This document shows, piece by piece, positions 1 to 894 of a DNA stretch of 11,490 bases (positions are counted from its first letter, which is position 1; every line of letters begins with the position of its first letter). The notes below the pieces were generated by a model. That model searched no databases. It was not told the origin of the DNA and saw only the letters and a list, made by a program, of their open reading frames with translations. The DNA is taken from positions 1-11,490 of the IMG/VR virus record IMGVR_UViG_2778261058_000014, one strand, 5' to 3'. Source of the stretch: a virus. Taxonomy: Duplodnaviria > Heunggongvirae > Uroviricota > Caudoviricetes. Made by a program: the position numbers and the translations under genes.

Positions 1-894
1 TTACTTTCTCAGAAGCCTCTTAAACTCATCTGCTAAAGATTTTGCTCTTAATAACAATAGCTCAGTAACTGATGTTACGTCAGAATCATATGATTCAACC
101 CTTTGAAGTGGTAAATCGCTTGAGGCATGAACCTCAACTAATCCCGCCTCATTAATCCTACGTATGCTAACTTCGCCATTTCTCGAAGCAATAAGAGCAT
201 CCTGCTTTAACTCACTATCAGGTTTAATTTCCTGACCACGCTCAGATTTATATGTTTTATCTTCTTCAATAACGCCAATACGTTTGAAACGCTTTTGCAT
301 AATACTTTCTGCAGAAGCGAGATCATCTGGGTTAGGACGTCGAGTAACCATATTTATACACGTAATGCCTTTTAAAGAAAGCATACGTTCTACGTTATCT
401 GGCTCGGTTAATATTGTAACATTAATCTTCCCAAACTTCTCTATAATTCTCTCATGAGAAAATATTCCATTCAGAAAATTTTCTATTTGTTTTGATGTAA
501 GATGCCGACCTTTGTCCTGCATCTCATAAACTAAAAGATGGCTGGCAGGTAGAAAAACAAAAGAGAATCGAGCCACATTTGGTTTTAAATTCTCAGGTAT
601 ACTTATCCTTTCCTTTTGCTCATCTGAGGCAATGTCTTTCTTTACAATATCGAACCAATCTCCATCAACATCAATATCTGTATACTTTAGAATTTCCCCT
701 TCAAAAGGTTCACTAACTACCTGATCTTTCCTGTAAGGATAAAAGTGTGATAAAGTCGCGAAAGAGTCCCCCCTCAAATTAACATTTCTCGCGTTTTTTC
801 TTGCCATTCTGAACAATTCTACATATTTTTCTGGCGAGTGGGGATGCATTGTTATATTCACCGCCCCATAAGTTAATTTTTTTGGTCTTGCCAT
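1..894 (-). CDS. hypothetical protein, 297 aa; AT-rich cargo gene at the distal end of the island, function unknown (candidate accessory or anti-phage gene)
   Basis: Complete ORF (ATG at 894, TAA at 1-3) with AGGA-type SD about 12 nt upstream. First 60 nt are about 32% GC versus about 50-57% in the core. No Walker A or other motif I can recognise. Confidence 0.6.
   Translation of the reverse strand: MARPKKLTYGAVNITMHPHSPEKYVELFRMARKNARNVNLRGDSFATLSHFYPYRKDQVVSEPFEGEILKYTDIDVDGDWFDIVKKDIASDEQKERISIPENLKPNVARFSFVFLPASHLLVYEMQDKGRHLTSKQIENFLNGIFSHERIIEKFGKINVTILTEPDNVERMLSLKGITCINMVTRRPNPDDLASAESIMQKRFKRIGVIEEDKTYKSERGQEIKPDSELKQDALIASRNGEVSIRRINEAGLVEVHASSDLPLQRVESYDSDVTSVTELLLLRAKSLADEFKRLLRK

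What the first reader, a model, noticed from the sequence alone, without database searches (positions are those of the whole stretch)
1..894. AT-rich 297-aa cargo gene at the distal end of the island: candidate uncharacterised accessory or anti-phage gene
This gene has a sharply lower GC content (about 32-37%) than the about 50% GC island core, which suggests separate acquisition. It sits past the packaging-type operon and the repeat array, where satellites are known to carry variable cargo, including defence systems. I find no Walker A, HTH or nuclease motif, so it is either a single-gene system or one component of a system continuing beyond position 1.
Basis: partly seen in the sequence, partly recalled or inferred. 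Interest (0 to 1): 0.8.

Follow-up and report, generated by a model that had tools for sequence, protein, structure and literature searches.

The report
Rex-like two-gene cassette on satellite
The AT-rich gene is real and encodes a DUF4747 protein with the fold of phage lambda's RexA; together with a four-helix membrane protein encoded just outside the window, it forms a mobile two-gene cassette, probably an untested phage-exclusion system, in the variable cargo slot of an E. coli phage satellite.

Summary
Observation confirmed. Window 894..1 (minus strand) is a complete 297-aa gene with 36.8% GC (GC3 28.5%), against 49% for the rest of the island. It is a full-length member of Pfam DUF4747 (E = 9.5e-98).

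Its stop codon overlaps (TAATG) the start of a 199-aa four-transmembrane-helix protein that begins at window base 1. In all 18 species-level loci with a complete DUF4747 gene, a homolog of this partner lies immediately downstream.

The slot is a hotspot. Sister islands carry SieB, an Old nuclease, GapS1, another large protein, or nothing. The same 1.6-kb cassette also sits in the psu-int defence hotspot of a P4-like satellite.

Most likely it is a Rex-like abortive-infection or exclusion module. It has been catalogued before (Rousset 2022 Table S1; 'DUF4747/CarolAnn system'), but I found no experimental test. It is a new member of a known kind, of moderate interest.

The parts
1..894 (-). DUF4747-family gene (297 aa). 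Predicted cytoplasmic protein with a RexA/RdgC-type fold. First gene of the two-gene cassette.
1..1 (-). First base (A of ATG) of the partner gene. The rest of that gene (199 aa, four TM helices; WP_016262943 in near-identical genomes) lies beyond the window's left edge. Stop and start overlap as TAATG.
   Evidence: Annotated in F9792 and FDAARGOS_1058. Translation. Junction sequence. Hydropathy. AF2 model of the 91%-identical representative: helices 28-45, 49-74, 98-131, 142-200. Partner homolog immediately downstream in 18/18 loci with a complete DUF4747 gene.
895..1003 (-). Upstream leader that travels with the cassette. It contains the RBS (AGGA 909-906) and one weak sigma-70-like candidate (-35 TTTTCT 953-948, 16 nt, -10 TATATT 931-926).
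   Evidence: This region is shared at ~89% with the P4-like satellite copy. Sequence. Relaxed scan. The stricter scan found no promoter on this strand, so the promoter is an inference only.
1004..1162 (.). Remainder of the AT-rich variable slot specific to this island lineage. Similarity to sister islands with other cargo resumes at about 1152-1174.
   Evidence: Start coordinates of blastn matches. L001 vs L004 comparison. GC 0.354.
1227..1406 (-). Conserved 59-aa island gene that marks the inner border of the cargo slot. It is not part of the cassette.
   Evidence: Present next to every alternative cargo (WP_032200750 and relatives).

Best explanation
The gene is the upstream, cytoplasmic component of a mobile two-gene 'Rex-like' phage-exclusion (abortive-infection) cassette. 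The cassette is carried as cargo in the variable 3'-end slot of a PICI-type phage satellite. Proposed mechanism, by analogy with lambda RexA/RexB and the actinophage Sbash gp30/gp31 and CarolAnn gp44/gp43 systems: the DUF4747 protein has a two-domain RexA/RdgC-type fold and is probably a DNA-binding dimer. It senses a phage-made product or a DNA-protein intermediate early in infection. It then activates the translationally coupled four-helix inner-membrane partner through that protein's conserved cytoplasmic TM2-TM3 loop. The partner dissipates membrane potential, ATP falls, and the infection aborts. Shown here: the gene, its family, the fold match, the partner's four-helix hydrophobic architecture, strict co-inheritance of the pair, cassette mobility, and hotspot location. 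Inferred only: DNA binding, dimerisation, the sensing step, channel activity, and any anti-phage phenotype.
Confidence: 0.55

Rival explanations
1. It is a two-gene anti-phage system, but not a Rex-type sensor-opens-channel system. The RdgC/RexA-fold protein is itself the effector: it binds DNA and blocks phage recombination-dependent replication or RecA-type functions, as RdgC does. The membrane protein only tethers, sequesters or regulates it. This is the model proposed for Butters gp30/gp31.
Against: The partner is the more conserved protein and has many invariant residues, which is more than a passive anchor would need. The strict 18/18 pairing shows that both are required. No direct evidence of DNA binding exists for DUF4747, and its net charge is near neutral (pI 7.8).
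Confidence: 0.2
2. It serves the satellite's own life cycle or maintenance rather than host defence. Either it is an addiction (toxin-antitoxin-like) module with a membrane toxin, or it is a RexA-like modulator that biases the helper prophage's lysis-lysogeny switch to favour satellite induction and transfer.
For: Overlapping two-gene operons with a small membrane protein resemble some toxin-antitoxin pairs. Lambda RexA can bias the bistable switch towards the lytic state independently of RexB (PMC11077077). The cassette rides on two kinds of helper-dependent satellite.
Against: The pair also occurs outside satellites: within a cluster of defence genes, in a P2-like prophage, and in integrase- or resolvase-associated islands. 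The slot's alternative occupants include known exclusion or defence genes. CarolAnn gp43 and gp44 were not toxic alone (PMC6426606), although they are not sequence relatives of this pair.
Confidence: 0.12
3. It is an accessory gene pair with no role in phage biology (for example a membrane-stress or transport function), and it sits in the slot only because the slot tolerates insertions.
For: Function is untested. Some contexts lack obvious defence neighbours. It matches no PADLOC or NCBIfam model.
Against: Its best structural match is a phage-exclusion protein. It occupies two independently defined defence hotspots and sits among defence genes in one metagenomic contig. Both genes belong to PHROG families, i.e. 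families built from phage proteins. Its AT-rich, patchy, mobile distribution is typical of defence cargo.
Confidence: 0.08

Closest known systems
Bacteriophage lambda RexA/RexB exclusion system (Pfam PF15969/PF15968; RexA structure PDB 8TWQ)
   Different: No detectable sequence or profile similarity for either protein. The partner is 199 aa against 144 aa for RexB. There is no linkage to a CI repressor or the PRM/PLIT promoters. The structural superposition is at domain level only (TM 0.30).
Actinophage Rex-like systems: Sbash gp30/gp31, CarolAnn gp44/gp43 (also Butters gp30/gp31), experimentally validated prophage defence
   Same: Two adjacent genes: a cytoplasmic protein plus a four-TM protein with a functionally important central loop. 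The literature links the cytoplasmic proteins to 'DUF4747' and to RexA, and a 2026 paper lumps them together as the 'DUF4747/CarolAnn prophage system'.
   Different: gp44, gp30 and Sejanus gp46 (356-372 aa) do not match Pfam DUF4747 at all, and hhalign against the DUF4747 profile gives 0.1-0.2% probability. The published link was a weak HHpred hit (probability 69%, E=140 for Butters). The partners are unrelated in sequence. Host phylum and GC content differ.
E. coli RdgC (recombination-associated DNA-binding protein, PDB 2OWL)
   Different: RdgC is a conserved chromosomal gene without a membrane partner. There is no Pfam RdgC match. This gene is a rare, mobile, AT-rich accessory gene.
Defence-cargo hotspots of phage satellites (P4 psu-int hotspot, Rousset et al. 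2022; PICI 5'/3'-end immune regions, Fillol-Salom et al. 2022 as cited in PMC11364771)
   Same: The cassette sits in exactly such slots: at the 3' end of a PICI-type island, with variable occupancy, and between psu and int in a P4-like element. It is listed in Rousset Table S1.
   Different: A hotspot is a location, not a mechanism. In the files of that paper that I could search, the DUF4747 pair appears only in the Table S1 cargo listing.

Membership tests
Pfam DUF4747 (PF15931) | Full-length match to the family HMM above the gathering score (27 bits) | tested here: met
   327.2 bits, E=9.5e-98, residues 13-269 on profile 1-257/257. All 69 homologs carry PF15931.
Lambda RexAB | Cytoplasmic component belongs to the RexA sequence family (PF15969 / PADLOC RexA) | tested here: not met
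   No RexA hit at E<=1 in Pfam or PADLOC, although both models hit lambda RexA at about 1e-97 to 1e-110. BLASTP E=0.43. hhalign against RexA alone 0.4% and against a 24-sequence RexA alignment 0.8%.
Lambda RexAB | RexA-type three-dimensional fold (split globular domain plus dimerization domain) | tested here: met
Lambda RexAB | Membrane component belongs to the RexB family (PF15968) | tested here: not met
   The partner has no Pfam or PADLOC hit and no BLASTP similarity to RexB. It shares only the four-TM architecture.
Lambda RexAB | Co-transcription with the cI immunity repressor in the lysogen | tested here: not met
   No repressor gene adjoins the cassette. Upstream is a 332-bp leader and then a 59-aa island gene.
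Lambda RexAB | Exclusion of T4 rII mutants with membrane depolarisation | not testable with these tools
   Requires infection assays.
CarolAnn gp44/gp43 - Sbash gp30/gp31 system | Sequence homology of the cytoplasmic protein to gp44/gp30 | tested here: not met
   hhalign A1 vs gp44 0.1%; A1 vs the gp44/gp30/Sejanus gp46 alignment 0.2%. gp44, gp30 and gp46 have no Pfam hit, DUF4747 included. tblastn of the window protein against 50,697 phage records found no match.
CarolAnn gp44/gp43 - Sbash gp30/gp31 system | Adjacent gene pair: cytoplasmic protein followed by a ~150-200-aa four-TM protein with a conserved central loop | tested here: met
   The four-TM topology and central-loop role of gp31/gp43 are taken from PMC6426596 and PMC6426606.
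CarolAnn gp44/gp43 - Sbash gp30/gp31 system | Both genes necessary and sufficient for defence, with trigger-dependent toxicity | not testable with these tools
   Requires cloning and phage challenge.
Satellite defence-hotspot cargo | Same position in related elements holds different, often defence-related, genes, flanked by conserved sequence | tested here: met
   Six islands show six states: DUF4747 pair, SieB, Old-family nuclease (PADLOC Old 2e-62), GapS1, a 662-aa protein, and empty. Conserved flanks were mapped by blastn. The same cassette lies between psu and int of a P4-like element and is listed in Rousset Table S1.
Known defence systems in PADLOC-DB v2.0.0 | Match to any of 5,027 defence-protein models | tested here: not met
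   The only hit for the DUF4747 protein is a chance-level GajB hit (E=0.012, 11.9 bits), and the partner has none. DefenseFinder, which as far as I recall has CarolAnn and RexAB models, could not be run.
RdgC family | Sequence membership in the RdgC family | tested here: not met
   No RdgC hit in Pfam at E<=1. Fold similarity only.

The most novel reading that the evidence does not exclude
True DUF4747 proteins and their strictly co-inherited, highly conserved four-TM partners form a distinct, widespread and experimentally untouched family of Rex-like abortive-infection systems. The DUF4747 family comprises about 1,265 clusters at 50% identity, and the paired loci examined span Proteobacteria and an acidobacterial MAG. 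The family shares only its fold and architecture with lambda RexAB and with the actinophage systems. If so, 'Rex-like' would be an ancient or convergent superfamily with at least three families that sequence methods cannot connect. This E. coli cassette is native to a tractable host and moves between PICI and P4 satellites, so it could offer a new genetic handle on the still unresolved Rex mechanism.
Probability: 0.45. Interest if true: 0.6.

Novelty: new member of a known kind. Interest (0 to 1): 0.42.

Why it matters
The mechanism of RexAB, the first phage-exclusion system described, is still a model rather than a demonstrated pathway. This cassette belongs to a much larger family than RexA itself: about 1,265 DUF4747 clusters at 50% identity in an exhaustive representative search, against only 36 RexA relatives in a word-indexed homolog search (a different method, so the comparison is rough). 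It occurs naturally in E. coli, has a well-conserved membrane partner with a short list of invariant residues, and is small enough (about 1.6-1.8 kb) to clone with its native leader. If it defends, it adds a validated system to E. coli satellites. It would also show that the RexA/RdgC fold paired with a four-helix membrane protein is a recurrent immune architecture. In addition, it corrects a loose statement in the literature: RexA and CarolAnn gp44 do not match Pfam DUF4747, so the label 'DUF4747/CarolAnn system' merges families that sequence methods cannot connect.

Tried and rejected
- **Sequence routes to a solved structure failed.** phmmer and hmmsearch of the protein and of the 37-sequence profile against PDB sequences gave only chance hits.
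- **Sequence routes to RexA failed.** BLASTP and hhalign against lambda RexA, then against a 24-sequence RexA family alignment, gave probabilities of 0.4-0.8%. The one weak alignment (DUF4747 168-255 with RexA 143-229, P=0.07) falls on RexA's dimerization domain but is not significant.
- **Sequence routes to the actinophage systems failed.** hhalign against CarolAnn gp44 alone and against a gp44/gp30/gp46 alignment found nothing. As a calibration, RexA against gp44 is equally undetectable.
- **Other library searches.** tblastn against 50,697 phage genomes found no match. NCBIfam gave no hit. PADLOC gave no real hit; a control showed that its RexA and RexB models work on the lambda proteins.
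- **Signals in the DNA.** The strict promoter/terminator scan found no promoter on the coding strand and no terminator. A relaxed scan gave one weak candidate. Rfam found nothing in the window.
- **Single-gene system rejected.** The pairing with the partner is strict.
- **Housekeeping RdgC-like role rejected.** The gene is rare (13 of 5,426 genomes), mobile, and tied to a membrane partner.
- **GajB hit rejected.** The PADLOC GajB hit (E=0.012, 11.9 bits over 49 residues) is chance-level.

Full report
**1. The observation**

Window 894..1 on the minus strand is a complete 297-aa ORF, with ATG at 894-892 and TAA at 3-1. Its GC content is 36.8% and its third-position GC is 28.5%. The 895-1162 leader is 35.4% GC. 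The rest of the window is 49.1% GC, and the island's core genes have GC3 of 50-59%.

The ORF is a real gene. It matches Pfam DUF4747 (PF15931) end to end at E=9.5e-98 and phrog_10040 at 5e-65. It is identical to a database protein named 'DUF4747 family protein [Escherichia coli]'. An exhaustive profile search finds about 1,265 clusters of relatives at 50% identity, nearly all 285-310 aa.

**2. The element it sits on**

The other genes in the window are:
- an AlpA-type regulator;
- an AntA antirepressor;
- a D5-type primase-helicase;
- ProQ/FinO;
- PerC;
- a DUF2213 protein that also matches a head-maturation-protease PHROG family;
- a protein with an N-terminus like a small terminase subunit.

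In the closest complete genomes a tyrosine integrase follows just past the right end. This is a PICI-type phage satellite of about 12 kb. Relatives of the island occur at five or more chromosomal sites.

**3. The gene is half of a two-gene cassette**

In E. coli F9792 (2 mismatches over window 1-1400) and in FDAARGOS_1058, the gene is followed by a 199-aa gene. The ATG of that gene overlaps the TAA stop as TAATG, so window base 1 is also the first base of the partner. The partner is the last gene of the island.

The partner is hydrophobic. An AlphaFold model of its 91%-identical cluster representative (pLDDT 82) has four long helices at about 28-45, 49-74, 98-131 and 142-178+. The loop between helices 2 and 3 is acidic and carries invariant G75, D76, F79, G85, S97 and M100. 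The N- and C-terminal tails are rich in Lys and Arg, which suggests that both termini and the central loop face the cytoplasm. That topology is an inference from the positive-inside rule.

I tested the pairing systematically. A scan of one genome per GTDB species returned 21 loci. All 18 with a complete DUF4747 gene, intact or frameshifted, have a partner homolog immediately downstream on the same strand, overlapping or within about 30 bp. In one of the 18 (L015) the partner itself is split into two ORFs, probably by a frameshift. The three exceptions are a truncated gene, a match cut off at a contig end, and a 29-residue fragment. The 18 loci span Gamma-, Beta- and Alphaproteobacteria and a Holophagaceae MAG. 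The partner is the more conserved protein in 16 of 20 loci (mean identity 47.7% vs 39.3%). These loci are not phylogenetically independent, so the Wilcoxon P value is only indicative.

**4. The protein itself**

The AlphaFold model built from a 37-sequence alignment is confident (pLDDT 91.6, pTM 0.87).
- **Foldseek against the PDB.** Only lambda RexA (8TWQ, E=2.3e-7 and 5.6e-6, probability 1.0) and E. coli RdgC (E=4e-5 to 1e-3) are significant.
- **Published link.** RexA and RdgC are published structural homologs (PMC11077077).
- **BFVD.** Uncharacterised ~300-aa proteins from metagenomic phages come first, followed by phage RdgC proteins.

Global TM-scores to RexA are low (0.30). The similarity is therefore at domain level, possibly with a different arrangement of the domains. 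RexA is itself reported to undergo a large hinge motion.

At the sequence level the link cannot be made. The Pfam and PADLOC RexA models do not hit the protein, although they hit lambda RexA at about 1e-97 to 1e-110. BLASTP and hhalign are negative, even profile against profile. The same holds for the experimentally validated actinophage proteins: CarolAnn gp44, Sbash gp30 and Sejanus gp46 have no Pfam hit at all, and hhalign gives 0.1-0.2%. RexA against gp44 is equally undetectable. The literature statement that RexA, gp30 and gp44 'contain a DUF4747 domain' rests on weak HHpred hits (for example probability 69%, E=140 for Butters gp30). The partner is unrelated in sequence to RexB and to gp43.

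**5. The slot is a hotspot and the cassette is mobile**

Comparing islands with blastn gives these boundaries:
- **Island end:** about 124 bp past the partner's stop codon.
- **Variable segment:** from about 61 bp past that stop codon to window position ~1162.
- **Flanks:** conserved island sequence on both sides.

Six sampled islands show six states at this slot:

| Strain | Cargo at the slot |
|---|---|
| F9792 and the window | DUF4747 pair |
| 08-00022 (same chromosomal site as F9792) | SieB |
| EC11 | Old-family nuclease (PADLOC Old 2e-62) |
| K56-43-un | GapS1 |
| ABU 83972 | 662-aa protein |
| ETEC1716 | empty |

A 1.6-kb piece occurs at 89% identity between psu and int of a P4-like satellite at ssrA in NCTC10973. 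It comprises 109 bp of leader, both genes and 8 bp downstream. That position is the defence hotspot defined by Rousset et al. 2022, whose Table S1 lists 'DUF4747 + hypothetical (WP_023196287 + WP_089520072)' and also 'RexA + hypothetical' as cargo. PICIs are reported to carry immune systems at their ends.

More distant pairs lie in other mobile or defence contexts:
- in a P2-like prophage next to gpD;
- between a type I R-M S subunit and a CBASS/GmrSD cluster;
- in integrase-, resolvase- or Cro/CI-associated regions.

Only 13 of 5,426 complete E. coli genomes carry the gene.

**6. Mechanism**

The best-supported reading (confidence 0.55) is a Rex-like two-component exclusion or abortive-infection module:
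- The RexA/RdgC-fold protein acts in the cytoplasm, probably as a DNA-binding dimer that senses an infection-specific product.
- It signals to the membrane partner through the conserved cytoplasmic loop.
- The partner collapses membrane potential.

Shown here are the anatomy, the fold, the pairing, the mobility and the hotspot location. All biochemical steps and the phenotype are inferred by analogy with RexAB and with Sbash and CarolAnn.

The rivals are:
- a defence system in which the RdgC-like protein is the effector and the membrane protein a regulator, as in the Butters model (0.2);
- a role in satellite maintenance or in manipulating the helper phage's switch (0.12);
- no role in phage biology (0.08).

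**7. Comparison with known systems, and novelty**

The protein is a member of Pfam DUF4747. By sequence it is not a member of the RexA/RexB families or of the gp44/gp43 family. It resembles them in fold (RexA) and in architecture (all of them).

The pair has already been noticed computationally, as hotspot cargo and as the 'DUF4747/CarolAnn prophage system' found downstream of capK/capS regulators. I found no experimental test of any true PF15931 pair. It is also absent from PADLOC v2.

I therefore rate it a new member of a known kind, and of moderate interest. It is a well-defined, clonable and probably functional candidate, not a surprise.

Noticed in passing
window 1436-1700: About seven copies of GGTTGACACTTT in both orientations, embedded in longer 40-47-nt repeats. 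They lie between the conserved 59-aa gene and the TerS-like HTH gene. This looks like an array of protein-binding sites (packaging, replication or regulator sites), but its function was not examined.
   Followed up: no
window 4795-5163: A 369-bp gene-free AT-rich trough (GC 0.287 at 4801-5100) between the ProQ/FinO gene and the primase gene. In F9792 the equivalent position holds extra genes, including an SDH-family Clp-fold serine protease. A second PICI accessory region next to pri has been described (PMC11364771). This may be an empty second cargo slot.
   Followed up: partly
window 8255-10051 (minus) and 8643-9119 (plus): The 598-aa minus-strand ORF has no Pfam hit and an odd Ser/Cys-rich sequence, so it is probably spurious. 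The plus-strand ORF inside it matches phrog_6522, and related islands are annotated with small Icd-like and YlcI/YnfO genes here. The window is about 1.1 kb longer than its closest complete relative, L014; where the extra sequence lies was not mapped.
   Followed up: partly
L001, L004-L008, L014 (related islands): The same satellite family is integrated at five or more chromosomal sites (next to GH15/ETT2, smrA-abgR, dinD, pao, vat). Its replication modules are mosaic: D5 primase in some, RepA helicase in others.
   Followed up: partly
L009 5691-6011 (Shewanella dokdonensis P2-like prophage): A 106-aa HTH_3 gene overlaps the start of the DUF4747 gene, which suggests a three-gene operon with its own regulator in some lineages. 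The E. coli cassette has no regulator gene. A 2026 paper reports capK/capS regulators upstream of 17 DUF4747 operons.
   Followed up: no
Literature / Pfam annotation: Lambda RexA, CarolAnn gp44, Sbash gp30 and Sejanus gp46 do not match Pfam DUF4747 with HMMER, although several papers state that they contain a DUF4747 domain. RefSeq annotates Sejanus gp46 as 'RexA family', yet it has no Pfam RexA hit either.
   Followed up: yes
L005 6743-8731 (E. coli ABU 83972): The 662-aa 'RNA-binding domain-containing protein' that occupies this slot in ABU 83972 has only weak PADLOC similarity to pAgo-associated and SIR2-PNTD modules (E=1e-7 to 1e-8). It is another uncharacterised candidate defence gene in the same hotspot.
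   Followed up: no
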